From assembly GCA_964016885.1 (NCBI GenBank), contig OZ024756.1:11470001-11534000 (forward strand): DNA of 64,000 nt, written 5' to 3'. The translations under genes were made by a program, and so were the position numbers. Below are positions 5,090 through 61,003 of this stretch, one piece after another; the stretch's first letter is position 1, and the number at the start of each line of letters is the position of its first letter. A model generated the notes under the pieces. That model searched no databases and was not told the origin of the DNA. It saw only the letters and a program-made list of their open reading frames with translations. The DNA is from Eledone cirrhosa (taxonomy: Eukaryota).

Positions 5090-6545
5090 ATCTCATTATT
5101 ATTATCTCACCACTGTGAGGCTTTGAGTTGGTATTTAAATTTGCAAATTTTGTGTGGTATGTTTGTGTTTTTTTCCATTGGGGTGTTTGGATTTTCCCCG
5201 TGCATGGTGTATCTGGAAGAAATTTTAGTGGTTCATCAGAACTGGCCTTAAGTAGAGCAGCATTGAATGTTGAAAGAGGATTCAGAGGCAGACAATCTGG
5301 AGATCCTAAGGGATACATTTTTAACAATAGAGCTAGTGATAGTCCTAGGATGGTTAGACCATCGATTAACATAGTTTAAGTTATCGTTAGATTTATGGAA
5401 TGCTTCATATATGTCGGAGTTAAGGTCAAGAGTCACATCTAAAAAGTTGATGCATTTAAGGTTATGGTCAAAAGATATTTTAAGGCCCATATATTGAAAG
5501 AAGGATCTAATAGCTTTCCTTTCTAATTGCTGACCATTGAAATTATTAATGAGTAGGAGAGCATCATCTCTATATATACCTCCTTTGAGGTCAGGAATTC
5601 TAGATGTAATGTGTGAATGAGATATGTTCCTACATGATGCGTAACTTGGGCTGAGTCGCTAGAACCCATAGTTATATCGAAGTCGTTTTGTCTATACTTA
5701 CATGTCCAGTACTCATTGTCAAACATTATGATCAAACGTCTATGTGGATTGGCAGTATTGGTAGAGGGTCGGACGCCATGCTTTGACGTATAGAGTTACG
5801 GCCCTTGCCTTTCTGAGTTCAAATCCCGCCAAGGTTCACTTTGCCTTTCATCCTTACGGGGTCGATAAAATAAAGTACCAGTAATGCACTGGATAATTGC
5901 TGGCCTTGTGCCTAACGTAGAAACAATTATGATCAAACGTCTAGCAGTTAAAATTATATCGACTTCATTTCTAGTTAATTTGGTATTGTGCATTGCGAAT
6001 ATAAGGGCTTTATTGAGGACTTGAGGAATAAATGAATAATAGTCATCTATGTCAAATTGAATCAAATTATAAGTGGATTTATCTTCTAAATTAGTGAACC
6101 AGTTGATCGTGTCTCCGGTATTGCCTCAGAGTTTTAAAGACAGTCTGTTTTTTATTTGTATTCGTTCCCTATCTAGAATGTGCTTACTTATGCGTCCTAT
6201 GTCAGATTTAGAAGGGCATATTAGTCTAATAGAGGGGTTAGATTCAAAGTTGTCCTTGTGGTCTTTCAAGTTAAAAGTTGGAAGTCGGGGTACAAATGGT
6301 TCTGTTCTGTCGGCTATGACTAAGTGATTGACTATCTTAAGGCCTTCCCTATTAATGTTATCAATGGTAGACTTATCCATTTCTCTATATTCCTTGTTCA
6401 GTTCCTTAACTATAGAGTTTCTATAGGTTATGTCTATGGAGTTTATATTGCCTGTTTTATCAGCGCGGATCAGTATTCCTTCCGTTTTTGCTAGTTCATC
6501 CATAGTTATTTTTAGGCTCCGTTGGAATTTGTTGTGGCATCAATG
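5090..6545 (-). mobile_element. Decayed Penelope-like element reverse transcriptase (Naiad/Chlamys-like RT signature), frameshifted
   Basis: Collinear minus-strand fragments ADKTGN, LKDHKDNFESNPSIRLICPSKSDIGRISK, QFDIDDYY, FDITMGSSDSAQV, GGIYRDDALL, INFLDVTLDL, SNHPRTI...RISRLS are PLE RT/thumb motifs. Confidence 0.85.
5743..5925 (+). mobile_element. tRNA-derived SINE family A, inserted in the PLE RT
   Basis: A-box-like TGGCAGTATTGG, B box GAGTTCAAATCC, core GCCTTTCATCCTTACGGGGTCGATAAA; 18-bp TSD ATTATGATCAAACGTCTA at 5725-5742 and 5926-5943. Confidence 0.9.
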
Positions 6546-7892: not shown

Positions 7893-8022
7893 AAAAGGGA
7901 ATGTACCCTTATCTTAAGGACACATCAGGTAATGTAGTCCAAGATAGACTGTGCGAAATAAAGACTAGATTGTCTGAATGGGAGTTCTTTGATCCTATAT
8001 GTCTGCCTGCTTCATCAAGGTT

Positions 8023-11000
8023 GAACTGGTGTGAATCAAATACAGTTGTCAGTCACTCTACCAGTCTTACCTGGAACTGGTGTGAAACAAGTACAGTTGT
8101 CAGTCACTCTACCAGTCTTACCTGGAACTGGTGTGAAACAAGTACAGTTGTCAGTCACTCTACCAGTCTTTCCTGGAACTGGTGTGAAACAAGTACAGTT
8201 GTCAGTCACTCTACCAGTCTTACCTGGAACTGGTGTGAAACAAGTACAGTTGTCGGTCACTCTACCAGTCTTTCCTGGAACTGGTGTGAAACAAGTACAG
8301 TTGTCAGTCACTCTACCAGTCTTTCCTGGAACTGGTGTGAAACAAATACAGTTGTCGGTCATTCTACCAGTCTTTCCTGGAACTGGTGTGAAACAAGTAC
8401 AGTTGTCGGTCACTCTACCAGTCTTACCTGGAACTGGTGTGAAACAAGTACAGTTGTCAGTCACTCTACCAGTCTTACCTGGAACTGGTGTGAAACAAGT
8501 ACAGTTGTCAGTCACTCTACCAGTCTTACCTGGAACTGGTGTGAAACAAGTACAGTTGTCGGTCACTCTACCAGTCTTTCCTGGAACTGGTGTGAAACAA
8601 ATACAGTTGTCGGTCACTCTACCAGTCTTACCTGGAACTGGTGTGAAACAAATACAGTTGTCAGTCACTCTACCAGTCTTACCTGGAACTGGTGTGAAAC
8701 AAGTACAGTTGTCAGTCACTCTACCAGTCTTACCTGGAACTGGTGTGAAACAAGTACAGTTGTCGGTCACTCTACCAGTCTTTCCTGGAACTGGTGTGAA
8801 ACAAATACAGTTTTCAGTCACTCTACCAGTCTTACCTGGAACTGGTGTGAAACAAGTACAGTTGTCAGTCACTCTACCAGTCTTACCTGGAACTGGTGTG
8901 AAACAAGTACAGTTGTCAGTCACTCTACCAGTCTTTCCTGGAACTGGTGTGAAACAAATACAGTTGTCAGTCACTCTACCAGTCTTTCCTGGAACTGGTG
9001 TGAAACAAATACAGTTGTCAGTCACTCTACCAGTCTTTCCTGGAACTGGTGTGAAACAAGTACAGTTGTCAGTCACTCTACCAGTCTTTCCTGGAACTGG
9101 TGTGAAACAAATACAGTTGTCAGTCACTCTACCAGTCTTACCTGGAACTGGTGTGAAACAAATACAGTTGTCGGTCATTCTACCAGTCTTTCCTGGAACT
9201 GGTGTGAAACAAGTACAGTTGTCGGTCACTCTACCAGTCTTACCTGGAACTGGTGTGAAACAAGTACAGTTGTCAGTCACTCTACCAGTCTTACCTGGAA
9301 CTGGTGTGAAACAAGTACAGTTGTCGGTCACTCTACCAGTCTTACCTGGAACTGGTGTGAAACAAATACAGTTGTCGGTCATTCTACCAGTCTTTCCTGG
9401 AACTGGTGTGAAACAAGTACAGTTGTCGGTCACTCTACCAGTCTTTCCTGGAACTGGTGTGAAACAAGTACAGTTGTCAGTCACTCTACCAGTCTTTCCT
9501 GGAACTGGTGTGAAACAAGTACAGTTGTCGGTCACTCTACCAGTCTTACCTGGAACTGGTGTGAAACAAGTACAGTTGTCAGTCACTCTACCAGTCTTAC
9601 CTGGAACTGGTGTGAAACAAATACAGTTGTCGGTCACTCTACCAGTCTTTCCTGGAACTGGTGTGAAACAAATACAGTTGTCAGTCACTCTACCAGTCTT
9701 TCCTGGAACTGGTGTGAAACAAGTACAGTTGTCAGTCACTCTACCAGTCTTACCTGGAACTGGTGTGAAACAAATACAGTTGTCAGTCACTCTACCAGTC
9801 TTACCTGGAACTGGTGTGGAACAAATACAGTTGTCGGTCACTCTACCAGTCTTACCTGGAACTGGTGTGAAACAAATACAGTTGTCAGTCACTCTACCAG
9901 TCTTACCTGGAACTGGTGTGAAACAAGTACAGTTGTCAGTCACTCTACCAGTCTTACCTGGAACTGGTGTGAAACAAGTACAGTTGTCGGTCACTCTACC
10001 AGTCTTTCCTGGAACTGGTGTGAAACAAGTACAGTTGTCAGTCACTCTACCAGTCTTACCTGGAAGTGGTGTGAAACAAATACAGTTGTCAGTCACTCTA
10101 CCAGTCTTTCCTGGAACTGGTGTGAAACAAATACAGTTGTCAGTCACTCTACCAGTCTTTCCTGGAACTGGTGTGAAACAAGTACAGTTGTCAGTCACTC
10201 TACCAGTCTTTCCTGGAACTGGTGTGAAACAAATACAGTTGTCAGTCACTCTACCAGTCTTACCTGGAACTGGTGTGAAACAAATACAGTTGTCGGTCAT
10301 TCTACCAGTCTTTCCTGGAACTGGTGTGAAACAAATACAGTTGTCAGTCACTCTACCAGTCTTTCCTGGAACTGGTGTGAAACAAATACAGTTGTCAGTC
10401 ACTCTACCAGTCTTTCCTGGAACTGGTGTGAAACAAGTACAGTTGTCAGTCACTCTACCAGTCTTTCCTGGAACTGGTGTGAAACAAATACAGTTGTCAG
10501 TCACTCTACCAGTCTTACCTGGAACTGGTGTGAAACAAATACAGTTGTCGGTCATTCTACCAGTCTTTCCTGGAACTGGTGTGAAACAAGTACAGTTGTC
10601 AGTCACTCTACCAGTCTTACCTGGAAGTGGTGTGAAACAAGTACAGTTGTCAGTCACTCTACCAGTCTTTCCTGGAACTGGTGTGAAACAAATACAGTTG
10701 TCAGTCACTCTACCAGTCTTTCCTGGAACTGGTGTGAAACAAATACAGTTGTCAGTCACTCTACCAGTCTTTCCTGGAACTGGTGTGAAACAAGTACAGT
10801 TGTCAGTCACTCTACCAGTCTTTCCTGGAACTGGTGTGAAACAAATACAGTTGTCAGTCACTCTACCAGTCTTACCTGGAACTGGTGTGAAACAAATACA
10901 GTTGTCGGTCATTCTACCAGTCTTTCCTGGAACTGGTGTGAAACAAGTACAGTTGTCGGTCACTCTACCAGTCTTACCTGGAACTGGTGTGAAACAAGTA

Positions 11001-13790
11001 CAGTTGTCAGTCACTCTACCAGTCTTACCTGGAACTGGTGTGAAACAAGTACAGTTGTCAGTCACTCTACCAGTCTTTCCTGGAACTGGTGTGAAACAAA
11101 TACAGTTGTCGGTCACTCTACCAGTCTTACCTGGAACTGGTGTGAAACAAATACAGTTGTCAGTCACTCTACCAGTCTTACCTGGAACTGGTGTGAAACA
11201 AGTACAGTTGTCAGTCACTCTACCAGTCTTACCTGGAACTGGTGTGAAACAAGTACAGTTGTCGGTCACTCTACCAGTCTTTCCTGGAACTGGTGTGAAA
11301 CAAATACAGTTTTCAGTCACTCTACCAGTCTTACCTGGAACTGGTGTGAAACAAGTACAGTTGTCAGTCACTCTACCAGTCTTACCTGGAACTGGTGTGA
11401 AACAAGTACAGTTGTCAGTCACTCTACCAGTCTTTCCTGGAACTGGTGTGAAACAAATACAGTTGTCAGTCACTCTACCAGTCTTTCCTGGAACTGGTGT
11501 GAAACAAATACAGTTGTCAGTCACTCTACCAGTCTTTCCTGGAACTGGTGTGAAACAAGTACAGTTGTCAGTCACTCTACCAGTCTTTCCTGGAACTGGT
11601 GTGAAACAAATACAGTTGTCAGTCACTCTACCAGTCTTACCTGGAACTGGTGTGAAACAAATACAGTTGTCAGTCACTCTACCAGTCTTTCCTGGAACTG
11701 GTGTGAAACAAGTACAGTTGTCAGTCACTCTACCAGTCTTACCTGGAACTGGTGTGAAACAAATACAGTTGTCAGTCACTCTACCAGTCTTACCTGGAAC
11801 TGGTGTGAAACAAATACAGTTGTCAGTCACTCTACCAGTCTTACCTGGAACTGGTGTGAAACAAGTACAGTTGTCAGTCACTCTACCAGTCTTACCTGGA
11901 ACTGGTGTGAAACAAATACAGTTGTCAGTCACTCTACCAGTCTTACCTGGAACTGGTGTGAAACAAGTACAGTTGTCAGTCACTCTACCAGTCTTTCCTG
12001 GAACTGGTGTGAAACAAGTACAGTTGTCAGTCACTCTACCAGTCTTTCCTGGAACTGGTGTGAAACAAATACAGTTGTCAGTCACTCTACCAGTCTTACC
12101 TGGAACTGGTGTGAAACAAGTACAGTTGTCAGTCACTCTACCAGTCTTACCTGGAACTGGTGTGAAACAAATACAGTTGTCAGTCACTCTACCAGTCTTA
12201 CCTGGAACTGGTGTGAAACAAATACAGTTGTCAGTCACTCTACCAGTCTTACCTGGAACTGGTGTGAAACAAGTACAGTTGTCAGTCACTCTACCAGTCT
12301 TACCTGGAACTGGTGTGAAACAAATACAGTTGTCAGTCACTCTACCAGTCTTACCTGGAACTGGTGTGAAACAAGTACAGTTGTCAGTCACTCTACCAGT
12401 CTTACCTGGAACTGGTGTGAAACAAGTACAGTTGTCAGTCACTCTACCAGTCTTTCCTGGAACTGGTGTGAAACAAATACAGTTGTCAGTCACTCTACCA
12501 GTCTTACCTGGAACTGGTGTGAAACAAGTACAGTTGTCAGTCACTCTACCAGTCTTACCTGGAACTGGTGTGAAACAAATACAGTTGTCAGTCACTCTAC
12601 CAGTCTTACCTGGAACTGGTGTGAAACAAATACAGTTGTCAGTCACTCTACCAGTCTTACCTGGAACTGGTGTGAAACAAGTACAGTTGTCAGTCACTCT
12701 ACCAGTCTTACCTGGAACTGGTGTGAAACAAGTACAGTTGTCAGTCACTCTACCAGTCTTTCCTGGAACTGGTGTGAAACAAATACAGTTGTCAGTCACT
12801 CTACCAGTCTTACCTGGAACTGGTGTGAAACAAGTACAGTTGTCAGTCACTCTACCAGTCTTACCTGGAACTGGTGTGAAACAAATACAGTTGTCAGTCA
12901 CTCTACCAGTCTTACCTGGAACTGGTGTGAAACAAATACAGTTGTCAGTCACTCTACCAGTCTTACCTGGAACTGGTGTGAAACAAGTACAGTTGTCAGT
13001 CACTCTACCAGTCTTACCTGGAACTGGTGTGAAACAAATACAGTTGTCAGTCACTCTACCAGTCTTACCTGGAACTGGTGTGAAACAAATACAGTTGTCA
13101 GTCACTCTACCAGTCCTTCCTGGAACTGGTGTGAAACAAATACAGTTGTCAGTCACTCTACCAGTCTTACCTGGAACTGGTGTGAAACAAGTACAGTTGT
13201 CAGTCACTCTACCAGTCTTACCTGGAACTGGTGTGAAACAAGTACAGTTGTCAGTCACTCTACCAGTCTTTCCTGGAACTGGTGTGAAACAAATACAGTT
13301 GTCAGTCACTCTACCAGTCTTTCCTGGAACTGGTGTGAAACAAGTACAGTTGTCAGTCACTCTACCAGTCTTTCCTGGAACTGGTGTGAAACAAATACAG
13401 TTGTCAGTCACTCTACCAGTCTTACCTGGAACTGGTGTGAAACAAATACTGTTGTCGGTCATTCTACCAGTCTTTCCTGGAACTGGTGTGAAACAAGTAC
13501 AGTTGTCAGTCACTCTACCAGTCTTACCTGGAACTGGTGTGAAACAAGTACAGTTGTCAGTCACTCTACCAGTCTTACCTGGAACTGGTGTGAAACAAAT
13601 ACAGTTGTCGGTCATTCTACCAGTCTTTCCTGGAACTGGTGTGAAACAAGTACAGTTGTCAGTCACTCTACCAGTCTTACCTGGAACTGGTGTGAAACAA
13701 GTACAGTTGTCAGTCACTCTACCAGTCTTACCTGGAACTGGTGTGAAACAAGTACAGTTGTCAGTCACTCTACCAGTCTTAACTGGAAAC
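8023..13790. repeat. 51-bp minisatellite array (~113 copies)
   Basis: Unit CTGGAACTGGTGTGAAACAA(G/A)TACAGTTGTC(A/G)GTCACTCTACCAGTCTT(A/T)C; 17-aa periodic ORFs. Confidence 0.97.
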
Positions 13791-13851
13791 CTAGTGTTCC
13801 GTGAGAGGTAGCTAGGGGTTCTGTGAGAAACAGAAAAACGGATAGATATTG

Positions 13852-16789: not shown

Positions 16790-17241
16790 TTATTTATATA
16801 ATGGCGATGAATTAGTTTTGCGAGGTTTTTGATATGAAATCGTGTGTCGAAACGAATATTGTTATACACATCAAACAAAACACTATATACACACGCAAAC
16901 GCATGCGCAGAGAAGACAAAAAAATAAACAAATAAATAAACATTATATAAAGATGGCGTAGGCATACAATACAACGGGAGGAAACATAATAGTACCACTG
17001 ACGATGTTGCAGATGTGCAACGAAAGAACTTTGTTAGACTATATATATGTGTTTGTGTCTATATTGTATCTGTATTTTTGACCGTTGGTCAGTCAATGGT
17101 AACACTGAGGACCGAATAAATTAAATTAACCGATATAAAAGACACAGAAGCGAAAACCAACCAAACAGTGAGTGTGTTCTGTTATTAATTCTGGCAATAA
17201 TATTACACAAATATGACCCTCTCCAAGTATATATATATATG

Positions 17242-17286
<45 letters not shown>

Positions 17287-17289
17287 GTA

Positions 17290-19052
17290 TCTTCCGCTGC
17301 ACCTCCTCCAACCTAGTCTACGGACTTCGTTGCACGAGGTGCAGTGCGACTTATGTCGGACAGACGGGACGCCGCCTGGCGGACCGAGTCACGGAGCACC
17401 TCCGGGACATTCGTCTCGGGGGCAGTTCCCCCATCGCCCGCCACTTTGGTGGCCCTGGACACTCCGCACACCATCTCACAGTCTGTGGCCTACTCCAGTG
17501 CCACGGAACACCCGCCCATCGCCTCACGGTCGAACAACGTACTATCTTCATCTTACAGACCCACACTCCCCCCGGCCTGAACTCCCCACCCTTATTCCTT
17601 TAGCGTTCGACCCCCCCCCCCCCCCCCACACACTTATCCCCCACTAACACCACTAACACACCCCTCCTTTTCACCGCCCACCCCACACTAACAATACTAA
17701 CACCTCCACTCCACCCCTCATCTGACCACCCTTCCCCAACTAACATACTAACATCCCTTCCCTCCCCTCTTCTCCTCCGCCTCCTTATCACACGCACACA
17801 CGCACCCACTTACACCACCCACCCCACACGCAACTAACATCACTAACACCCTCCAACCCCACGCACACGTACCCACACACCCTCGTACACCACCAACTCT
17901 ACACACCCTACCCCCACTAACCCCCACTCACACCTGCATTCCACCCCTCCCCACGTCCCGTATATTAACACCCACTAACACCTCTTCACCAAACTACACA
18001 CACACCAGTACACCACACTCCCTCCATAGAACCACACACACTCTTCTCTCCCCACTCCACACTCACTCATCCCACTAACACCCCACTAATACACACACAC
18101 ATACACACACACACACACCCTCCTCACTCCAACTCTCACACCTACCCATCCTCGCCTCCCTACCATTCCGCCGACTGTTGCTATGCCCTTCCGACCACTG
18201 TCTCAGCACCAACTGACCACAGCACTTCCACTGCTGACCACTTCCTGTTGCGCGCGCACCCCACATCTCTCCTCTTCCGACCACCGCTTCTTGGATTACC
18301 CACACGCGTTTTGACTTCTCACCAAAATCTCCATACATCCGTGTAACTTACCACTTTTCAACCACCCTCTTACACCACCACCTATATAACTCACCCACAC
18401 ACACACCCCAAAACAATTTTTTTATCCACACGCCACCCACACCCACAACACGCTTAAACCACACACACGTGCTTCCCACCACATATTTACACCCTCAGCC
18501 CCCTGATTCCTCTCCCCCCACCCCCCTATCCACACACGCACAGACCCTCCGACCCACAAAAACACCCCCCACACACACCTTCCTGAACATGCAACCCCGT
18601 TCTTCCCCAACCCTCACTTTCACATACACACACACGCACACACCACCTTCAGCCCTCCCCGCTCGGACACCCCGTCTCCCTCTCCCCACTCCACCCGCCT
18701 CCACCTCTACTCACCCCACACCCTTCCACCACCTGTTTACCCCCCTTTTAATTTCAGTTTATTTTGATCATGCCTTTATTTTTAAATGTTCTCATTCCTT
18801 GTATTTTGATCATGCTTTATTTTTATTTATTATTTATTATATTTTTGTCTTTATTTGTTAATTTTTCATTCGCACCGTTTCCTTTCGCTATATGTCTCTC
18901 CACCACTCCCCTACACACCTTTTGAACTCTCACCTGAAGAAGGGCTTATGCCCGAAACGTCGTCCCCCACCTACCCCCCACTCTCCTGAGCGTGAATCTA
19001 ATAAACATTTGTCGTACTGCCTCTCTGTTCTGTCCCTGTTCAATTTTTCATT
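17290..19052 (+). mobile_element. 5'-truncated Penelope-like element: GIY-YIG endonuclease (17290-17603), C-rich 3'UTR and pLTR
   Basis: FRCTSSNLVYGLRCTRCSATYVGQTGRRLADRVTEH...HF...H...EQRTIFILQT..P.GLN matches the PLE GIY-YIG domain; hammerhead-bearing terminal repeat downstream. Confidence 0.88.
18930..18965 (+). ncRNA. Minimal type-I hammerhead ribozyme (PLE pLTR)
   Basis: CTGAAGA-A-GGGC-TTAT-GCCC-GAAAC-GTC: intact catalytic core, stem II GGGC/GCCC, palindromic ACGT stem III, GUC triplet. Confidence 0.8.
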
Positions 19053-39636: not shown

Positions 39637-39834
39637 CCCTTTAGCATTTAAACCAGCCATATCAGACCAGAATACTCTCACCTTTTTCTGTTCCAACTGG
39701 CTGTAACTGTCCACTCATTCTGATGTTAAGGTATTGTTCTCAAAATAGATATCAAAATCTCATAGATTTGATATTATAAAGCCTTTACCACAAAAATACA
39801 ATAGTATATATAGAGTAATGTAAATGCTAAAGGG
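39637..39834. mobile_element. piggyBac-like MITE P1, compact copy
   Basis: Perfect 14-bp TIR CCCTTTAGCATTTA; GTAA/TTAA flanks. Confidence 0.88.
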
Positions 39835-39869
39835 TTAATGTTTTTGAAGGGCTTTAGTCTCAACACACA

Positions 39870-42800
39870 ATCTCAGATCAAGTCACTTGCCAAACATGTA
39901 CAACTGTGGCAACAGTCTCAGATCAAGTCACCTGTCAGACATGTACAACTGTGGCAACAGTCTCAGATCAAGTCAGTTGCCAGACATGTACAACTGTGGC
40001 AACAGTCTCAAATCAAGTCACTTGCCAAACATGTACAACTGTGGCAACAGTCTCAAATCAAGTCATCTGCCAGAAATGTACAACTGTGGCAACAGTCTCA
40101 GATCAAGTCACTTGCCAAACATGTACAACTGTGGCAACAGTCTCAAATCAAGTCACTTGCCAAACATGTACAACTGTGGCAACAGTCTCAAATCAAGTCA
40201 TCTGCCAGAAATGTACAACTGTGGCAACAGTCTCAGATCAAGTCACTTGCCAAACATGTACAACTGTGGCAACAGTCTCAAATCAAGTCACTTGCCAAAC
40301 ATGTACAACTGTGGCAACAGTCTCAGATCAAGTCACTTGCCAAACATGTACAACTGTGGCAACAGTCTCAAATCAAGTCACTTGCCAAACATGTACAACT
40401 GTGGCAACAGTCTCAGATCAAGTCATCTGCCAAACATGTACAACTGTGGCAACAGTCTCAGATCAAGTTACTTGCCAAACATGTACAACTGTGGCAACAG
40501 TCTCAGATCAAGTCACCTGCCAAACATGTACAACTGTGGCAACAGTCTCAGATCAAGTCACTTGCCAAACATGTACAACTGTGGCAACAGTCTCAGATCA
40601 AGTCACTTGCCAAACATGTACAACTGTGGCAACAGTCTCAGATCAAGTCATCTGCCAGAAATGTACAACTGTGGCAACAGTCTCAGATCAAGTCAGTTGC
40701 CAGACATGTACAACTGTGGCAACAGTCTCAGATCAAGTCAGTTGCCAAACATGTACAACTGTGGCAACAGTCTCAGATCAAGTCACTTGCCAAACATGTA
40801 CAACTGTGGCAACAGTCTCAGATCAAGTCACTTGCCAAACATGTACAACTGTGGCAACAGTCTCAGATCAAGTCATCTGCCAGAAATGTACAACTGTGGC
40901 AACAGTCTCAGATCAAGTCACTTGCCAAACATGTACAACTGTGGCAACAGTCTCAGATCAAGTCACTTGCCAGACATGTACAACTGTGGCAACAGTCTCA
41001 GATCAAGTCAGTTGCCAAACATGTACAACTGTGGCAACAGTCTCAGATCAAGTCACTTACCAGACATGTACAACTGTGGCAACAGTCTCAGATCAAGTCA
41101 GTTGCCAAACATGTACAACTGTGGCAACAGTCTCAGATCAAGTCACTTGCCAAACATGTACAACTGTGGCAACAGTCTCAGATCAAGTCAGTTGCCAAAC
41201 ATGTACAACTGTGGCAACAGTCTCAGATCAAGTCATCTGCCAGAAATGTACAACTGTGGCAACAGTCTCAGATCAAGTCACTTGCCAAACATGTACAACT
41301 GTGGCAACAGTCTCAGATCAAGTCACTTGCCAGACATGTACAACTGTGGCAACAGTCTCAGATCAAGTCAGTTGCCAAACATGTACAACTGTGGCAACAG
41401 TCTCAGATCAAGTCACTTGCCAGACATGTACAACTGTGGCAACAGTCTCAGATCAAGTCAGTTGCCAAACATGTACAACTGTGGCAACAGTCTCAGATCA
41501 AGTCATCTGCCAGAAATGTACAACTGTGGCAACAGTCTCAGATCAAGTCAGTTGCCAGAAATGTACAACTGTGGCAACAGTCTCAGATCAAGTCAGTTGC
41601 CAAACATGTACAACTGTGGCAACAGTCTCAGATCAAGTCACTTGCCAGACATGTACAACTGTGGCAACAGTCTCAGATCAAGTCATCTGCCAGACATGTA
41701 CAACTGTGGCAACAGTCTCAGATCAAGTCACTTGCCAGAAATGTACAACTGTGGCAACAGTCTCAGATCAAGTCAGTTGCCAAACATGTACAACTGTGGC
41801 AACAGTCTCAGATCAAGTCAGTTGCCAGACATGTACAACTGTGGCAACAGTCTCAGATCAAGTCAGTTGCCAGAAATGTACAACTGTGGCAACAGTCTCA
41901 GATCAAGTCAGTTGCCAGAAATGTACAACTGTGGCAACAGTCTCAGATCAAGTCAGTTGCCAAACATGTACAACTGTGGCAACAGTCTCAGATCAAGTCA
42001 CTTGCCAGACATGTACAACTGTGGCAACAGTCTCAGATCAAGTCATCTGCCAGACATGTACAACTGTGGCAACAGTCTCAGATCAAGTCAGTTGCCAAAC
42101 ATGTACAACTGTGGCAACAGTCTCAGATCAAGTCACTTGCCAGACATGTACAACTGTGGCAACAGTCTCAGATCAAGTCACTTGCCAAACATGTACAACT
42201 GTGGCAACAGTCTCAGATCAAGTCACTTGCCAGACATGTACAACTGTGGCAACAGTCTCAGATCAAGTCACTTGCCAGACATGTACAACTGTGGCAACAG
42301 TCTCAGATCAAGTCACTTGCCAAACATGTACAACTGTGGCAACAGTCTCAGATCAAGTCACTTGCCAGAAATGTACAACTGTGGCAACAGTCTCAGATCA
42401 AGTCACTTGCCAGAAATGTACAACTGTGGCAACAGTCTCAGATCAAGTCACTTGCCAAACATGTACAACTGTGGCAACAGTCTCAGATCAAGTCACTTGC
42501 CAGAAATGTACAACTGTGGCAACAGTCTCAGATCAAGTCACTTGCCAGAAATGTACAACTGTGGCAACAGTCTCAGATCAAGTCACTTGCCAGAAATGTA
42601 CAACTGTGGCAACAGTCTCAGATCAAGTCACTTGCCAAACATGTACAACTGTGGCAACAGTCTCAGATCAAGTCACTTGCCAGAAATGTACAACTGTGGC
42701 AACAGTCTCAGATCAAGTCACTTGCCAGAAATGTACAACTGTGGCAACAGTCTCAGATCAAGTCACTTGCCAGAAATGTACAACTGTGGCAACAGTCTCA

Positions 42801-45715
42801 GATCAAGTCACTTGCCAAACATGTACAACTGTGGCAACAGTCTCAGATCAAGTCACTTGCCAAACATGTACAACTGTGGCAACAGTCTCAGATCAAGTCA
42901 CTTGCCAGAAATGTACAACTGTGGCAACAGTCTCAGATCAAGTCACTTGCCAGAAATGTACAACTGTGGCAACAGTCTCAGATCAAGTCACTTGCCAAAC
43001 ATGTACAACTGTGGCAACAGTCTCAGATCAAGTCACTTGCCAGAAATGTACAACTGTGGCAACAGTCTCAGATCAAGTCACTTGCCAGAAATGTACAACT
43101 GTGGCAACAGTCTCAGATCAAGTCACTTGCCAGAAATGTACAACTGTGGCAACAGTCTCAGATCAAGTCATCTGCCAGACATGTACAACTGTGGCAACAG
43201 TCTCAGATCAAGTCAGTTGCCAAACATGTACAACTGTGGCAACAGTCTCAGATCAAGTCACTTGCCAGACATGTACAACTGTGGCAACAGTCTCAGATCA
43301 AGTCAGTTGCCAAACATGTACAACTGTGGCAACAGTCTCAGATCAAGTCACTTGCCAGACATGTACAACTGTGGCAACAGTCTCAGATCAAGTCAGTTGC
43401 CAGACATGTACAACTGTGGCAACAGTCTCAGATCAAGTCAGTTGCCAAACATGTACAACTGTGGCAACAGTCTCAGATCAAGTCACTTGCCAGACATGTA
43501 CAACTGTGGCAACAGTCTCAGATCAAGTCAGTTGCCAAACATGTACAACTGTGGCAACAGTCTCAGATCAAGTCATCTGTCAGACATGTACAACTGTGGC
43601 AACAGTCTCAGATCAAGTCAGTTGCCAGAAATGTACAACTGTGGCAACAGTCTCAGATCAAGTCAGTTGCCAGACATGTACAACTGTGGCAACAGTCTCA
43701 GATCAAGTCAGTTGCCAGAAATGTACAACTGTGGCAACAGTCTCAGATCAAGTCACTTGCCAAACATGTACAACTGTGGCAACAGTCTCAGATCAAGTCA
43801 CTTGCCAAACATGTACAACTGTGGCAACAGTCTCAGATCAAGTCACTTGCCAAACATGTACAACTGTGGAAACAGTCTCAGATCAAGTCAGTTGCCAGAC
43901 ATGTACAACTGTGGCAACAGTCTCAGATCAAGTCAGTTGCCAAACATGTACAACTGTGGCAACAGTCTCAGATCAAGTCACTTGCCAGACATGTACAACT
44001 GTGGCAACAGTCTCAGATCAAGTCAGTTGCCAAACATGTACAACTGTGGCAACAGTCTCAGATCAAGTCATCTGTCAGACATGTACAACTGTGGCAACAG
44101 TCTCAGATCAAGTCAGTTGCCAGAAATGTACAACTGTGGCAACAGTCTCAGATCAAGTCAGTTGCCAGACATGTACAACTGTGGCAACAGTCTCAGATCA
44201 AGTCAGTTGCCAGAAATGTACAACTGTGGCAACAGTCTCAGATCAAGTCACTTGCCAAACATGTACAACTGTGGCAACAGTCTCAGATCAAGTCACTTGC
44301 CAAACATGTACAACTGTGGCAACAGTCTCAGATCAAGTCACTTGCCAAACATGTACAACTGTGGCAACAGTCTCAGATCAAGTCAGTTGCCAAACATGTA
44401 CAACTGTGGCAACAGTCTCAGATCAAGTCACTTGCCAGAAATGTACAACTGTGGCAACAGTCTCAGATCAAGTCACTTGCCAAACATGTACAACTGTGGC
44501 AACAGTCTCAGATCAAGTCATCTGCCAGAAATGTACAACTGTGGCAACAGTCTCAGATCAAGTCACTTGCCAAACATGTACAACTGTGGCAACAGTCTCA
44601 GATCAAGTCAGTTGCCAGACATGTACAACTGTGGCAACAGTCTCAGATCAAGTCAGTTGCCAAACATGTACAACTGTGGAAACAGTCTCAGATCAAGTCA
44701 CTTGCCAAACATGTACAACTGTGGCAACAGTCTCAGATCAAGTCACTTGCCAAACATGTACAACTGTGGCAACAGTCTCAGATCAAGTCACTTGCCAGAC
44801 ATGTACAACTGTGGCAACAGTCTCAGATCAAGTCACTTGCCAAACATGTACAACTGTGGCAACAGTCTCAGATCAAGTCATCTGCCAGAAATGTACAACT
44901 GTGGCAACAGTCTCAGATCAAGTCACTTGCCAGAAATGTACAACTGTGGCAACAGTCTCAGATCAAGTCACTTGCCAGAAATGTACAACTGTGGCAACAG
45001 TCTCAGATCAAGTCACTTGCCAAACATGTACAACTGTGGCAACAGTCTCAGATCAAGTCACTTGCCAAACATGTACAACTGTGGCAACAGTCTCAGATCA
45101 AGTCACTTGCCAAACATGTACAACTGTGGCAACAGTCTCAGATCAAGTCAGTTGCCAAACATGTACAACTGTGGCAACAGTCTCAGATCAAGTCACTTGC
45201 CAGAAATGTACAACTGTGGCAACAGTCTCAGATCAAGTCATCTGCCAGAAATGTACAACTGTGGCAACAGTCTCAGATCAAGTCATCTGTCAGACATGTA
45301 CAACTGTGGCAACAGTCTCAGATCAAGTCAGTTGCCAGACATGTACAACCGTGGCAACAGTTTTAGATCAAGTCATCTGTCAGACATGTACAACTGTGGC
45401 AACAGTCTCAGATCAAGTCAGTTGCCAGACATGTACAACTGTGGCAACAGTTTTAGATCAAGTCATCTGTCAGACATGTACAACTGTGGCAACAGTTTTA
45501 GATCAAGTCATCTGTCAGACATGTACAACTGTGGCAACAGTCTCAGATCAAGTCATATGGTAGACATGTACAACTGTGGCAGCAGTCTTAGATGAAGTCA
45601 TCTGCCAGCCATGTACAACTGTGGCAACAGTCTCAAATCAAGTCATCTGCTAGACATGTACAACTGTGGCTAAAATGGCAGTCTCAGTCTCAGTCTAAGT
45701 CACTTGCCAGACAAG
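39870..45715. repeat. 45-bp minisatellite array (~129 copies)
   Basis: Unit TCTCAGATCAAGTCA(CT/GT/TC)TGCCA(A/G)A(C/A)ATGTACAACTGTGGCAACAG. Confidence 0.97.
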
Positions 45716-52265: not shown

Positions 52266-52364
52266 TTTTATGACGACTGGAAAGAATGAAAATTAAACCT
52301 ACATAACACAACAAAACTAAACTATGTAATACTGTACTATATGACCTGAGTGGTTGGACTGTTC

Positions 52365-55300
52365 TAGACTATATGATCTCAGCTGTACTATACTATATGA
52401 TCTCAGCTGTACTATACTATATGATCTCAGTTGTACTATACTATATGATCTCAGTTGTACTATACTATATGATCTCAGTTGTACTATACTATATGATCTC
52501 AGCTGTACTATACTATATGATCTCAGTTGTACTATACTATATGATCTCAGCTGTACTATACTATATGATCTCAGTTGTACTATACTATATGATCTCAGCT
52601 GTACTATACTATATGATCTCAGTTGTACTATACTATATGATCTCAGCTGTACTATACTATATGATCTCAGTTGTGCTATACTATATGATCTCAGTTGTAC
52701 TATACTATATGATCTCAGCTGTACTATACTATATGATCTCAGTTGTACTATACTATATGATCTCAGCTGTACTATACTATATGATCTCAGTTGTACTATA
52801 CTATATGATTTCAGTTGTACTATACTATATGATCTCAGCTGTACTATACTATATGATCACAGTTGTACTATACTATATGATCTCAGCTGTACTATACTAT
52901 ATGATCTCAGTTGTACTATACTATATGATTTCAGTTGTACTATACTATATGATCTCAGCTGTACTATACTATATGATCTCAGCTGTACTATACTATATGA
53001 TCTCAGCTGTACTATACAATATGATCTCAGTTGTACTATACTATATGATCTCAGCTGTACTATACTATATGTTCTCAGCTGTACTATACTATATGATCTC
53101 AGCTGTACTATACTATATGATCTCAGTTGTACTATACTATATGATCTCAGTTGTGCTATACTATACTATATGATCTCAGCTGTACTATACTATATGATCT
53201 CAGTTGTACTATACTATATGATCTCAGCTGTACTATACAATATGATCTCAGTTGTACTATACTATATGATCTCAGCTGTACTATACTATATGATCTCAGC
53301 TGTACTATACAGTATGATCTCAGCTGTACTATACTATATGATCTCAGTTGTACTATACTATATGATCTCAGTTGTACTATACTATATGATTTCAGTTGTA
53401 CTATACTATATGATCACAGTTGTACTATACTATATGATCACAGTTGTACTATACTATATGATCACAGTTGTACTATACTATATGATCACAGTTGTACTAT
53501 ACTATATGATCACAGCTGTACTATACTATATGATCTCAGTTGTACTATACTATATGATCTCAGATGTACTATACAATATGATCTCAGCTGTACTATACTA
53601 TATGATTTCAGTTGTACTATACTATATGATCTCAGTTGTACTATACTATATGATCTCAGTTGTACTATACTATATGATCTCAGTTGTACTATACTATATG
53701 ATCTCAGCTGTACTATACTATATGATCTCAGTTGTACTATACTATATGTTCTCAGCTGTACTATACTATATGATCTCAGCTGTACTATACTATATGATCT
53801 CAGCTGTACTATACTATATGATCTCAGTTGTACTATACTATATGATCCCAGTTGTACTATACTATATGATCTCAGTTGTACTATACTATATGATCTCAGT
53901 TGTACTATACTATATGATCTCAGTTGTGCTATACTATACTATATGATCTCAGCTGTACTATACTGTATGATTTCAGTTGTACTATACTATATGATCTCAG
54001 TTGTACTATACTATATGATCACAGTTGTACTATACTATATGATCTCAGCTGTACTATACAATATGATCTCAGCTGCACTATACTATATGATTTCAGTTGT
54101 ACTATACTATATGATCACAGTTATACTATACTATAGGATTTCAGTTGTATTATACTAAATGATCTCAGTTGTACTATACTATATGATCTCAGCTGTACTA
54201 TACTATATGATCTCAGCTGTACTATACTATATGATCTCAGCTGTACTATACTATATGATCTCAGTTGTACTATACTATATGATCTCAGTTGTACTATACT
54301 ATATGATCTCAGTTGTACTATACTATATGATCTCAGCTGTACTATACTATATGATCTCAGCTGTACTATACTAAATGATCTCAGTTGTACTATACTATAT
54401 GATCTCAGCTGTACTATACTATATGATCTCAGCTGTACTATACTATATGATCTCAGCTGTACTACACTATATGATCTCAGCTGTACTATACTATATGATC
54501 TCAGCTGTACTATACTATATGATTTCAGTTGTACTATACTATATGATCTCAGTTGTACTATACTATATGATTTCAGTTGTACTATACAATATGATCTCAG
54601 TTGTACTATACTATATGATCTCAGTTGTACTATACTATATGATCTCAGTTGTACTATACTATATGATCTCAGTTGTACTATACTATACTATATGATCTCA
54701 GCTGTACTATACTATATGATTTCAGTTGTACTATACTATATGATCACAGTTGTACTATACTATATGATCTCAGCTGTACTATACTATATGATCGCAGTTG
54801 TACTATACTATATGATCTCAGTTGTACTATACTATATGATCTCAGCTGTACTATACTATATGATCTCAGTTGTACTATACTATATGATCTCAGCTGTACT
54901 ATACTATATGATCTCAGTTGTACTATACTATATGATCTCAGTTGTACTATACTATATGATCTCAGTTGTACTATACTATACTATATGATCTCAGTTGTAC
55001 TATACTATACTATATGATCTCAGCTGTACTATACTATATGATCACAGTTGTACTATACTATATGATCTCAGCTGTACTATACTATATGATCTCAGTTGTA
55101 CTATACTATACTATATGATCTCAGCTGTACTATACTATATGATCTCAGTTGTACTATACTATATGATCAGCTGTACTATACTATATGATCTCAGTTGTAC
55201 TATACTATATGATCTCAGCTGTACTATACTATATGATCTCAGTTGTACTATACTATACTATATGATCTCAGCTATACTATACTATATGATCTCAGCTGTA

Positions 55301-56378
55301 CTATACTATATGATCTCAGTTGTACTATACTATATGATCTCAGTTGAACTATACTATATGATCACAGCTGCACTATACAATATGATCTCAGCTGTACTAT
55401 ACTATATGATCTCAGCTGTACTATACTATATGATCTCAGTTGTACTATACTATATGATCTCAGCTGTACTATACTATATGATCTCAGTTGTACTATACTA
55501 TATGATCTCAGCTGTACTATACTATATGATCTCAGCTGTACTATACTATATGATCTCAGTTGTACTATACTATATGACCTCAGCTGTACTATACTATATG
55601 ATCTCAGTTGTACTATACTATATGATCTCAGTTGTACTATACTATATGATCTCAGTTGTACTATACTATATGATCTCAGCTGTACTATACTATATGATCT
55701 CAGCTGTACTATACAATATGATCTCAGTTGTACTATACTATATGATCTCAGTTGTACTATACTATATGATCTCAGCTGTACTATACTATATGATCTCAGC
55801 TGTACTATACTATATGATCTCAGCTGTACTATACAATATGATCTCAGTTGTACTATACTATATGATCTCAGCTGTACTATACTATATGATCTCAGCTGTA
55901 CTATACTATATGATCTCAGCTGTACTATACTATATGATCTCAGCTGTACTATACTATATGATCTCAGCTGTACTATACAATATGATCTCAGTTGTACTAT
56001 ACTATATGATCACAGCTGTACTATACAATATGATCTCAGTTGTACTATACTATATGATCTCAGTTGTACTATACTATATGATCTCAGCTGTACTATACTA
56101 TATGATCTCAGCTGTACTATACTATATGATCTCAGTTGTACTATACTATACTATATGATCTCAGTTGTACTATACTATATGATCTCAGTTGTACTATACT
56201 ATATGATCTCAGTTGTACTATAGTATACTATATGATCTCAGCTGTAATATACTATATGATCTCAGTTGTACTATACTATATGATCTCAGCTGTACTATAC
56301 TATATGATCTCAGTTGTACTATACTATATGATCTCAGTTGTACTATACTATATCATCTCAGTTGTACTATACTATATA
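52365..56378. repeat. 24-bp minisatellite array (~165 copies, occasional +CTATA 29-mers)
   Basis: Unit ATGATCTCAG(C/T)TGTACTATACTAT. Confidence 0.97.
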
Positions 56379-56504
56379 ATTAGAAGTTGCAGGCTTTTAC
56401 CTCCTACATCAAACAAGGTAGATTACAGTTTGTTTATATACATGTATGTTTGTGTGTATATATATATTTATACACATGTATGTATGTATTGTGTATATAT
56501 TTGC

Positions 56505-56546
<42 letters not shown>

Positions 56547-56572
56547 AAAGGGATATTTAATTTGTTGGTAAT

Positions 56573-57280
56573 TCAACAAATATATATATTTATAACTGAT
56601 TCAAAGCACTCAACAGATTTTCTGGAGTATAATATCAATGATATTAATAAATATCCAGGTAAAACTTCAACTTGAACTGTTAAGATCTCGTTCCTAGATA
56701 TGTCAATATTTATAAAACAAATTTTGAATTTTATCTGAAGAGAGCGTACCAAAGTTTTGGTACCCTTGAAATATATATAATAGAATAAATATGGTTTTAT
56801 AAATATAGTTTCCATTTATTAATATCATTGATATATATATATATATACGATATTAAATAAATGGAAACTATATTTATAAAACCATATTTATTCCACTATA
56901 TATATTTCAGGGATATCATATTAAAAATATGGTATGCCTTCTTCAGACAAAATACAATATAAACAGTCTTATAAATAGATAGATTTGATATACCTTACAA
57001 CTTCAACTTCCATTTAAAAAGTTGATTTGGTATCAAATCAACTTTTTAAATGGAAGTTGAAGTTGTAAGGTATGTCAAATCTATCTATTTATAAGACTGT
57101 TTATATTGTATTTTGTCTGAAGAAGGCATACCATATTTTTAATATGATATCCCTGAAATATATATATAGTGGAATAAATATGGTTTTATAAATATAGTTT
57201 CCATTTATTTAATATCGTAAATATACTCCAAATACTTGTTGAGTGCTTTTATATCAGTTATAAATATTTACTCGTTGTAA
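56573..57280. mobile_element. Cluster of inverted PLE-type terminal repeats carrying three hammerhead-like cores
   Basis: Near-perfect palindrome 56846-57029/57034-57219; related copies at 56660-56835 (+) and 56573-56651 (-); CTGAAGA-stem-GAAATATATA cores. Confidence 0.7.
56731..56783 (+). ncRNA. Type-I hammerhead-like motif
   Basis: TTAT-CTGAAGA-GAGCGTACC(AAAGTTTT)GGTACCCTT-GAAA-TATAT-ATA-ATAG. Confidence 0.6.
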
Positions 57281-57305
57281 CCCAACAATTTAAATAAAAC
57301 TTTGC

Positions 57306-57386
<81 letters not shown>

Positions 57387-58374: not shown

Positions 58375-58765
58375 GGAGGCACATGGCTTAGTGGTTAGAG
58401 CATTGGCCTTGCAATCGAAAGGCTGTGAGTTAAATTCTCAGACCAGGTGATGTGTTGTTTCCTTGAGCAAGACACTTTATTTCACATTGCTCCAGTTTAC
58501 TCAGCTGTAGAAATGAGATGATAGGACTGGGGTCCCTATCATTTCACTGCAAAGTGGTCGTGGAGTGCCACGGCAAAAAAGCACTCAGCACTCACTGTAA
58601 AGTGGACGTGTAGGCGCCACAGAAAGAAAAGCACCCAGCACTCACTGCAAATGAGGTTGGTGTTAGAAGGGCATCCAGCTGTAGAAATCAAGCCAGAATC
58701 AGTTCCCGTCCCACCCTAGCAAGCAGGGAAAAGCGGATGTAAAAAAAATGAAATGAAATGAAAAA
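58375..58765 (+). mobile_element. SINE family B, full length, with an internal ~48-bp duplication
   Basis: Matches 23841-24185; G(T/C)GCCAC...AAAAGCA(CT/CC)CAGCACTCACTG occurs twice. Confidence 0.9.
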
Positions 58766-59124: not shown

Positions 59125-60666
59125 GCATCATCACCATCATCATCACTGCCACCATCACCATCATCTTCACTGCCACCACCACCATCATCATCACTGCCAC
59201 CACCACCATCATCACTGCCACCACCACCACCATCATCACTGCCATCACCACCACCATCATCACTGCCACCACCACCATCATCATCACTGCCACCATCACC
59301 ATCATCTTCACTGCCACCACCACCATCATCATCACTGCCACCACCACCATCATCACTGCCACCACCACCATCATCACTGCCATCATCACCACCATCATCA
59401 CTGCCACCACCACCATCATCATCACTGCCACCACCACCATCATCACTGCCACCACCACCACCATCATCACTGCCACCACCACCATCATCATCACTGCCAC
59501 CATCACCATCATCTTCACTGCCACCACCACCATCATCATCACTGCCACCACCATCATCATCACTGCCACCACCACCATCATCACTGCCACCACCACCATC
59601 ATCACTGCCATCATCACCACCATCATCACTGCCACCACCACCATCATCATCACTGCCACCACCACCATCATCACTGCCATCACCACCACCATCATCACTG
59701 CCACCACCACCATCATCACTGCCACCACCACCATCATCATCACTGCCACCACCACCATCATCATCACTGCCACCACCACCATCATCACTGCCACCACCAC
59801 CATCATCACTGCCACCACCACCATCATCACTGCCACCACCACCATCATCACTGCCACCATCACCATCATCTTCACTGCCACCACCACCATCATCATCACT
59901 GCCACCACCACCATCATCACTGCCACCACCACCATCATCACTGCCATCACCACCACCATCATCACTGCCACCACCACCATCATCATCACTGCCACCATCA
60001 CCATCATCTTCACTGCCACCACCACCATCATCATCACTGCCACCACCACCATCATCACTGCCACCACCACCATCATCACTGCCATCATCACCACCATCAT
60101 CACTGCCATCACCACCATCATCATCACTGCCACCACCACCATCATCATCACTGCCACCATCACCATCATCTTCACTGCCACCACCACCATCATCATCACT
60201 GCCACCACCACCATCATCACTGCCACCACCACCATCATCACTGCCACCACCACCATCATCACTGCCACCACCACCATCATCATCACTGCCACCACCACCA
60301 TCATCATCACTGCCACCACCACCATCATCACTGCCACCATCATCATCACTGCCACCACCACCACCATCATCACTGCCACCACCACCACTATCACTGCCAC
60401 CACCATCATCATCACTGCCACTACCACCACCATCATCACTGCCACTGCCACCACCACCATCATCATCACCGCCATCACCACCATCATCTTCACTGCCACC
60501 ACCATCATCATCACTGCCACCACCACCACCACCATCATCACTGCCACCACCACCACCATCATCACTGCCCCCACCACCACCATCATCACTGCCACCACCA
60601 CCATCATCATCACCGCCATCATCTTCACTGCCATCACCACCATCATCTTCACTGCCACCACCACCA
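59125..60666. repeat. Compound (CCA)n(TCA)nCTG trinucleotide array
   Basis: Read directly; abuts the assembly gap. Confidence 0.93.
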
Positions 60667-60866
60667 NNNNNNNNNNNNNNNNNNNNNNNNNNNNNNNNNN
60701 NNNNNNNNNNNNNNNNNNNNNNNNNNNNNNNNNNNNNNNNNNNNNNNNNNNNNNNNNNNNNNNNNNNNNNNNNNNNNNNNNNNNNNNNNNNNNNNNNNNN
60801 NNNNNNNNNNNNNNNNNNNNNNNNNNNNNNNNNNNNNNNNNNNNNNNNNNNNNNNNNNNNNNNNNN
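60667..60866. other. Assembly gap (200 N)
   Basis: Run of N. Confidence 1.
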
Positions 60867-61003
60867 ATATATAATATGTATATGTATATATATGTATATA
60901 TATATGTATATATATATATATGTGTATATATATGTATATATATATGTATATATATATATATGGTGTATATATATGTATATATATATGTATATATATATAT
61001 ATG

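What the first reader, a model, noticed from the sequence alone, without database searches (positions are those of the whole stretch)
56573..57280. ORF-less double-palindrome cassette carrying three hammerhead ribozyme cores on both strands
Seen: a near-perfect inverted repeat with ~185-bp arms and a 4-nt spacer (one substitution and a 2-nt TA-run difference between arms). Each arm contains CTGAAGA-stem II-GAAA-TATATA-TA. A diverged third copy with a different but still pairing stem II lies at 56731-56783, and an inverted 3' piece at 56573-56651, giving the order <- -> <- ->. Established: minimal type-I hammerheads with palindromic stem III mark Penelope-like pLTRs and retrozymes, and PLE insertions often carry inverted pLTRs. 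Inference: a non-autonomous fold-back, ribozyme-bearing retroelement (a mini-PLE/retrozyme-like unit). Transcription from either side would give one sense ribozyme inside a long dsRNA hairpin, a potential ADAR/Dicer substrate. Stem I of the palindromic pair is only G-U wobbles, so those two copies may be inactive.
Basis: partly seen in the sequence, partly recalled or inferred. Interest (0 to 1): 0.75.

Follow-up and report, generated by a model that had tools for sequence, protein, structure and literature searches.

The report
Penelope stubs copied twice from mRNA
This mirror-image DNA is two neighbouring stubs of common Penelope-type jumping genes, each carrying a ribozyme-shaped motif; it is a known kind of insertion, but its very regular ends suggest that the element's enzyme likely copied the front of one RNA molecule twice, once onto each side of a DNA break.

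Summary
The sequence is as described, but it is not one cassette and not shown to be a retrozyme. It is two independent, ORF-less insertions of two sister families (A, B) of autonomous Hydra-clade Penelope-like retroelements sharing one (TA)n run. Each is a head-to-head pair of pseudo-LTR arms, one tailed and one tail-less: a published layout, recurring hundreds of times here. The hammerheads are real by covariation across families, but these copies are probably dead. What I add: 45 of 94 family-A arms (23 of 30 in B) stop within about 30 nt of an initiator-like site. Paired arms agree on stopping there (p=5e-7) and on a polymorphism (55 of 56), junctions differ (20 of 22), and rare variants shared by both arms are enriched for A>G. 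None of 90 copies starts at the ribozyme cut site. Likely mechanism: one uncut mRNA is copied from two hairpin-marked sites onto both ends of a break and runs off its 5' end. No RNA data were available. The scan found the twin hairpins and two-ended priming before, on other DNA of this genome and in other genomes.

The parts
57034..57300 (+). Family A long (tailed) arm: pLTR positions 4-270 of a Hydra-clade Penelope-like element; ends in (TA)n
   Evidence: 98% to 3' ends of ORF-bearing copies such as L033, L035
56840..57032 (-). Family A short (tail-less) arm: pLTR positions 1-193; last unambiguous base at 56846, then (TA)n; starts at the initiator-like site
57030..57033 (.). Spacer: three bases of the short arm (pLTR 1-3) plus one extra base; head-to-head joint of the two arms
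57109..57176 (+). Type I hammerhead of the long arm: core from 57117, stem II 57124-57154, GAAA 57155-57158, self-complementary stem III segment, predicted cut after 57168; stem I weakened by two A>G changes
   Evidence: family covariation
56889..56954 (-). Type I hammerhead of the short arm: core from 56946, predicted cut between 56897 and 56896; the same two A>G changes
57225..57247 (+). Hairpin 1 (ACTC-loop-GAGTGCT), about 6 nt beyond the short-arm end; its twin lies just beyond position 270 in full elements and is absent here
56652..56834 (+). Family B short arm: B pLTR positions 1-177 with a 6-nt duplication; starts at the B initiator-like site
56728..56786 (+). Type I hammerhead of family B: core from 56735, stem II 56742-56767, predicted cut after 56779
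56545..56652 (-). Family B long (tailed) arm, 5'-truncated at B position 157; holds hairpin 1 (56628-56606) and no hammerhead
56831..56847 (.). (TA)n run shared by the two insertions; likely the target into which the family A copy landed
   Evidence: the order is inferred from divergence (A about 98%, B 93-98% to relatives)
56512..56543 (.). Left flanking (TA)n target run
57301..57328 (.). Right flanking (TA)n target run

Best explanation
The stretch is two adjacent ORF-less insertions of two Hydra-clade Penelope-like retrotransposon families in a TA repeat, and each was likely made when the element's protein copied the front end of one uncut mRNA twice, once from each side of a DNA break. Shown: family identity; the head-to-head short-arm plus long-arm layout; two fixed 3' ends a few bases before two conserved hairpins; the pile-up of 5' ends at an initiator-like motif; and agreement between paired arms. 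Inferred: the endonuclease cuts both strands of (TA)n. A protein dimer bound at the twin hairpins primes one cDNA at position ~190 and one at ~270. Both run to or near the RNA 5' end (the transcription start) and are joined there. Long insertions would come from read-through or circular RNA. The stub lacks hairpin 2 and the ORF, so it is probably a dead end. Its hammerheads would need a partner RNA to cut and would be buried in a long duplex if the palindrome were transcribed. Confidence: identity about 0.97, one-RNA run-off mechanism about 0.6.
For: Arms continue upstream into a ~3.8-kb RT+GIY-YIG element in many loci, with Hydra motifs matched by eye. 3' ends: 54 short, 34 long, 6 other of 94. 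5' ends: 45 of 94 within -9..+23, against 3.5% expected from the upstream truncation rate; family B 23 of 30 within -4..+12. A YYACTAY initiator-like motif marks that point in several families. Of 41 pairs: both arms stop there 16, both run upstream 14, mixed 2 (p=5e-7), 9 uninformative. Polymorphic site 91 agrees between arms in 48 of 48 and 55 of 56 pairs, including 25 of 26 long-span pairs. Rare variants shared by both arms are A>G in 8 of 15, against 9 of 63 one-arm substitutions (p=0.003), as expected if both arms copied one edited RNA. Either arm can reach further 5' (by >30 nt: short 14, long 9), which a fold-back of one sense cDNA cannot give. The hairpin-2 pattern matches 1,077 times against 3 for the control; copy ends lie 1-12 nt before a hairpin in most cases. 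In vitro, a related element extends both strands, starts at two internal sites and uses uncut RNA (PMC11167929).
Against: No RNA was seen, so the start site, expression and cleavage are all inferred. The 5'-end window was chosen after seeing the data. It includes a hairpin at positions 8-30 that could stall RT, and 14 of the 45 ends lie in +10..+23. Only 3 of 15 long read-through copies stop there (p=0.053 against terminal arms). Allele agreement would also follow from one active source per cell or epoch, or from conversion between arms. The A>G result rests on 15 variants (6 of 11 after dropping four subfamily variants, p=0.007). There are exceptions to short+long pairing (L152 short+short; solo arms L112, L122, L132, L160, L166). 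No cap-derived G is evident at 5' ends (4 of 11, by eye). PMC11167929 saw no strand preference between its two start sites. Clade placement is by motifs, not by a tree; Pfam gave only a weak unrelated hit.
Confidence: 0.75

Rival explanations
1. Same elements and two-ended priming, but two separate RNAs are used, and the pile-up is an RT stall or template-switch hotspot at the hairpin at pLTR 8-30 rather than a transcript end.
For: A hairpin lies at 8-30 and 14 of 45 ends fall in +10..+23. Many junctions show microhomology at TTTAAA. One source per cell would give allele agreement.
Against: Independent stalling predicts many mixed pairs; 2 of 32 informative pairs are mixed. 20 of 22 compact insertions have their furthest 5' end within -7..+5, upstream of or at the hairpin's edge. 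Family B piles up at the homologous motif with a different downstream sequence.
Confidence: 0.2
2. Compact stubs are non-autonomous sources: a stub is transcribed from its own internal promoter and recopied in trans, forming a new junction each time.
For: Stubs keep the presumed promoter and both end positions. Allele 91T is commoner among compact than long contig-C1 pairs (about 13 of 17 against 5 of 16, counted by eye). pLTRs can act in trans (PMC3846280 passage).
Against: Stubs lack hairpin 2, which lies beyond position 270. The window's 137G variant also occurs in long, coding-sequence-bearing insertions. No head-to-tail monomers are present.
Confidence: 0.12
3. The palindrome arose by self-priming fold-back of one cDNA, or on an antisense template (model in PMC3846280), with later conversion between arms.
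For: Perfect palindromic joints, and near-identical arms (1.0% own-pair against 1.8% cross-pair difference).
Against: The tail-less arm often reaches far further 5' than the tailed arm (14 pairs by >30 nt, up to the whole ORF in L044). Both outer ends are fixed and abut (TA)n. Shared variants are skewed to A>G on the sense strand, not T>C (8 against 1).
Confidence: 0.05
4. Assembly or library fold-back artefact.
For: Perfect hairpins in AT-rich DNA are a known artefact; no read spanning this locus was seen.
Against: The arms differ at two sites and are asymmetric in the same stereotyped way at dozens of unlinked loci. Raw reads of other individuals show about 5,000 reads per run leaving the pLTR at position 193 into (TA)n.
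Confidence: 0.02

Closest known systems
Hydra clade of C-terminal EN+ Penelope-like elements, e.g. Hydra-1_Obim (Craig et al. 2021, PMC8557442; passages, section 11 and supplement hits read)
   Same: RT then GIY-YIG; RW(K/R), DKT and CxCx5C motifs; no CCHH; (TA)n target; hammerhead in the pLTR; 5' truncation, inverted partner and tail.
   Different: Different families (the protein differs visibly from Hydra-1_Obim); about 3.8 kb with a 1.3-kb 3'UTR against <3 kb; a 75-85-nt tail against 30-40; very high copy number. A pile-up of 5' ends and arm concordance are not described in the parts I read.
Minimal hammerheads of metazoan PLEs (Cervera and de la Pena 2014, PMC4209133; parts 1-2 of 4 read)
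   Same: Type I core, long stem II, short palindromic stem III suited to dimers; opposite-strand pairs 100-700 bp apart, read there as truncated PLEs.
   Different: No bulged base before stem II, and the first stem II pair is A-U or G-U rather than the conserved G-C; stem I of about 8 bp.
Poseidon PAc in vitro system (Frangieh et al. 2024, PMC11167929; parts 1-2 of 4 read)
   Same: Two internal RT start sites bounding the tail; both strands cut and extended; AT-rich target; uncut RNA as template; no reads at the ribozyme site.
   Different: Another clade. Its start sites lie inside the ORF in one stem-loop; here they lie before the ATG, each ahead of its own hairpin. Strict short+long pairing was not reported there.
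Metazoan non-LTR retrozymes (PMC7229834, passages read; bioRxiv 10.64898/2026.07.22.740005, part 1 of 5 read)
   Same: Non-coding, type I hammerhead, PLE-related.
   Different: Retrozymes are head-to-tail tandem monomers giving circular RNA; this is one hammerhead per arm, head to head, contiguous with an autonomous element.

Membership tests
Hydra-clade Penelope-like element | Single ORF with RT and C-terminal GIY-YIG endonuclease, attached to this pLTR | tested here: met
   (family A); one search shows the endonuclease end upstream of family B pLTRs L068 and L370; the window's own copies lack the ORF
Hydra-clade Penelope-like element | RWK-like, DKT and CxCx5C motifs, CxxC/CxH around E and N, no CCHH | tested here: met
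   (RWR, SDKTNN, CNCRDRSKC, CVLC, CRH) compared by eye
Hydra-clade Penelope-like element | Insertion into (TA)n; 5' truncation, inverted partner and tail | tested here: met
Hydra-clade Penelope-like element | Length generally under 3 kb | tested here: not met
   about 3.8 kb owing to a long 3'UTR; a tendency in the paper, not a diagnostic
Hydra-clade Penelope-like element | RT phylogeny groups with Hydra references | not tested
   reference proteins were only seen as supplement text
Type I hammerhead ribozyme | Core CUGANGA/GAAA/UH with three stems supported by covariation | tested here: met
   91.4% of cells paired, 13 of 19 pairs change on both sides, 0 of 500 shuffles reach the covariation score, slid controls 34-55%; cores also appear in families picked by the hairpin alone
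Type I hammerhead ribozyme | Match to an Rfam hammerhead model | tested here: not met
Type I hammerhead ribozyme | Active fold favoured in the window's copies | tested here: not met
   constrained hammerhead folds -4.2, -3.1 and -6.5 kcal/mol against free minima -12.3, -12.5 and -10.9
Type I hammerhead ribozyme | Self-cleavage | not testable with these tools
   needs an in vitro assay; indirect: 0 of 60 and 0 of 30 copies begin at the cut site
Non-LTR retrozyme | Head-to-tail tandem monomers each with a hammerhead | tested here: not met
Non-LTR retrozyme | Propagates as a unit, apart from an ORF-bearing element | tested here: not met
   20 distinct junctions among 22 compact copies; variants shared with long copies
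Non-LTR retrozyme | Circular RNA | not testable with these tools
   no RNA holder listed

The most novel reading that the evidence does not exclude
Compact Penelope palindromes are fossils of single mRNA 5' ends: a dimeric telomerase-like RT docks on twin hairpins, copies the same uncut, sometimes A-to-I edited RNA twice from the two ends of one break, and runs off the cap. Thousands of such stubs would then map each family's promoter and record its RNA editing in DNA, and the two size classes of insertion would reflect two template pools (capped mRNA against read-through or ribozyme-made circles).
Probability: 0.5. Interest if true: 0.65.

Novelty: new member of a known kind. Interest (0 to 1): 0.42.

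Why it matters
How Penelope-like elements, the closest relatives of telomerase RT, make their inverted pLTR and tail is still open (stated in PMC8557442 and PMC3846280). This genome holds tens of thousands of recent copies. Their ends favour two-ended priming on one RNA over fold-back, and give exact predictions (start site, two hairpins, barcode concordance) for the existing in vitro system. The locus itself is an ordinary dead stub.

Tried and rejected
Rfam scans found only sub-threshold microRNA-hairpin hits and no hammerhead. Pfam gave one weak unrelated hit for the ORF. No RNA holder listed. Reads across the window's own junction were not seen, so that locus-level check stays open. laid contigs and RAD-seq reads on a sister copy; its opposite-strand joints rest on 1-3 start points each and may be library chimeras, so I do not count them. 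Hammerhead core better conserved than flanks among young copies: no (15 of 1,297 against 80 of 15,443 rare changes), as expected for unselected dead copies; conservation shows only across families. Exact-match counts along the element (2,624 tail, 813 at position 35, 318 at -27, 484 at -290) are confounded by subfamily polymorphism and were not used as a truncation curve. Apparent ends at position 72 are alignment breaks of diverged subfamilies. A first hand count of pairs (17/2/0/15) was superseded. Cap-derived G: not evident. Splice-donor reading of GGTATGT: not conserved in family B, dropped. Target-site duplications cannot be read in (TA)n. Literature searches found no paper on a 5'-end pile-up, twin priming in PLEs or cephalopod hammerheads; subscription journals are not covered, and the supplements of PMC11167929, PMC4209133 and the bioRxiv preprint were not seen and may bear on this.

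Full report
Observation. A self-comparison shows a fold-back of 56840-57225 at 97.4%, whose arms differ by one substitution and a 2-nt TA insertion. Three hammerhead cores begin at 57117 (+), 56946 (-) and 56735 (+). Two corrections: the right arm runs 75 nt past the palindrome to about 57300, and stem I has four Watson-Crick pairs beyond four wobbles. Rfam does not detect these ribozymes.

What it belongs to. The arm is a young, abundant repeat in this 3-Gb animal genome (1,151 first-look candidates, the best at 98%). In about half of the best loci it continues upstream. Twenty longer stretches show a ~3.8-kb element: pLTR, an ORF with RT and C-terminal GIY-YIG, a 1.3-kb 3'UTR, and pLTR. The protein has RWR, SDKTNN, YRDD, CxCx5C and CxxC/CxH motifs and no CCHH, which match the Hydra clade as defined in PMC8557442 (section 11; supplement alignment compared by eye). 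Its 38 database relatives are 31-42% identical; the two named ones come from an octopus and a coral, so the host is likely a cephalopod (inference). The third core and the inverted 3' piece belong to a sister family, B, with its own copies and an endonuclease end upstream of its pLTR. The locus therefore reads (TA)n, B long arm, B short arm, (TA)n, A short arm, A long arm, (TA)n: two insertions sharing one TA run.

The layout recurs. A 21-mer at pLTR position 35 matches 813 times. I examined all 99 listed hits on contig C1, dropped 5 local duplicates, and re-binned 4 by hand where BLAST showed continuation. 3' ends are fixed: 54 short (about 190), 34 long (270) and 6 other of 94, abutting (TA)n. 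Paired arms are head to head, one short and one long, in 41 pairs; exceptions are one short+short pair and five solo arms. Family B does the same at 177 and 262. An inverted truncated partner with a tail is published (PMC8557442, PMC3846280 passages), as are opposite-strand hammerhead pairs (PMC4209133). Raw RAD-seq reads of other individuals show about 5,000 reads per run leaving the pLTR at position 193 into (TA)n.

The 5' ends pile up. 45 of 94 arms end within -9..+23 of the palindrome centre seen in the window, 15 end in the next 340 nt, and 34 run further; 3.5% would be expected at the upstream rate (the window was chosen after seeing the data). In family B, 23 of 30 fetched hits (of 40) end within -4..+12, one at -10, and six run upstream (two rows may be duplicates). 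The point carries a YYACTAY motif in several families whose upstream sequence differs, like the TCACT initiator-like sequence noted in PMC3846280; Penelope has an internal promoter (PMC2377424 passages). All three window arms that reach this far start at +1, +4 and +1. Of 30 fetched ORF-bearing copies (of 37), 3 start there, 15 start inside the pLTR, and 12 run upstream as partial tandems.

Paired arms behave as if from one template. Among the 41 pairs, both arms stop at the site in 16, both run upstream in 14, 2 are mixed, and 9 have an arm that ends earlier (p=5e-7). The polymorphic N7 base agrees in 48 of 48 pairs and 55 of 56 in a wider set, including 25 of 26 long-span pairs. Rare variants shared by both arms are A>G in 8 of 15 and T>C in 1; among one-arm substitutions A>G is 9 of 63 and T>C 10 (p=0.003). 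The window's own 140A>G is in both its arms and recurs in both arms of two other insertions on other haplotypes. This fits A-to-I editing of one RNA copied twice, but the numbers are small, and a single active source or conversion could explain part of it. Either arm can reach further 5', which excludes fold-back of one sense cDNA. Junctions are diverse (20 among 22 compact insertions), so the palindrome is not copied as a unit.

What sets the 3' ends. Earlier scan notes pointed to twin hairpins; I tested this. Full copies carry ACTC-loop-GAGTGC after the short end and GCTC-loop-GAGCGC after the long end. The second pattern matches 1,077 times against 3 for the control. Of 30 loci, most are leaders of several PLE families with hairpin 1 at -74 to -99 and a hammerhead upstream, two belong to another sequence, and several are truncated. 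TA-joined ends fall mostly 1-12 nt before a hairpin. The window's stub has hairpin 1 only. In PMC11167929 a related protein extends both strands from two internal sites on uncut RNA.

The ribozymes. The motif pattern matches 60,649 times against 5 for the control; an axolotl count of up to 120,000 appears in a section title of PMC7229834, so this is high but no record. Across 18 family representatives (21 found, 3 dropped, 1 replaced), 13 of 19 pairs change on both sides and 91.4% of cells pair (the rows are related and were picked by the core). Stem III is self-complementary, as for dimer-type hammerheads. In the window's copies the active fold is 4-9 kcal/mol above the free minimum, and the whole palindrome folds at -282 kcal/mol. 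No copy begins at the cut site: 0 of 60 tail-selected loci of mixed subfamilies and 0 of 30 ORF-bearing loci. Cut linear RNA is therefore not a main template. Among young copies the core is not better conserved than its flanks.

Verdict. A new member of a known kind: two dead stubs of Hydra-clade Penelope-like elements, not a retrozyme. The interest lies in the population evidence for two-ended copying of one mRNA with run-off at its start, which is inferred from DNA only. Interest 0.42.

Noticed in passing
window 5248-6539 (-): Broken Hydra-type RT fragment of another family, 45-56% identical to the family A protein.
   Followed up: partly
window 17217-17603 (+): 128-aa frame with a CxxC and a YVGQT motif resembling the GIY-YIG end of another Penelope-like clade (resemblance recalled).
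   Followed up: no
window about 8000-13800, 39800-45600, 52300-56380: Long homogeneous minisatellites with units of 45, 33 and 24 nt; the 24-nt array ends about 150 nt left of the finding.
   Followed up: no
window 58384-58441 (+): tRNA-like head of a probable SINE, 25.9 bits, below Rfam's threshold.
   Followed up: no
G000 genome-wide: 60,649 matches to one hammerhead pattern from many families, often as divergent pairs.
   Followed up: partly
L314:2109-2183, L045:7303-7377: Stem III palindrome changed from AUAUAUAU to AUGCGCAU, keeping self-complementarity, which supports dimer pairing.
   Followed up: partly
pLTR position about 42-47 (window 57072-57077): ATGTCA/ACGTCA conserved 35-45 nt before the hammerhead in most families; possible promoter element.
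   Followed up: partly
L157 (C1:373049300-373056700): One compact palindrome present three times within 6 kb, likely a local duplication.
   Followed up: no
L040, L043, L163, L165, L025: Extra internal inversions inside long arms, suggesting template switches during copying.
   Followed up: no
L112, L122, L132, L166: Solo tail-less arms running from the initiator-like site to position 193.
   Followed up: no
window about 60650-60870: Assembly gap (run of N) about 3.4 kb right of the finding.
   Followed up: no
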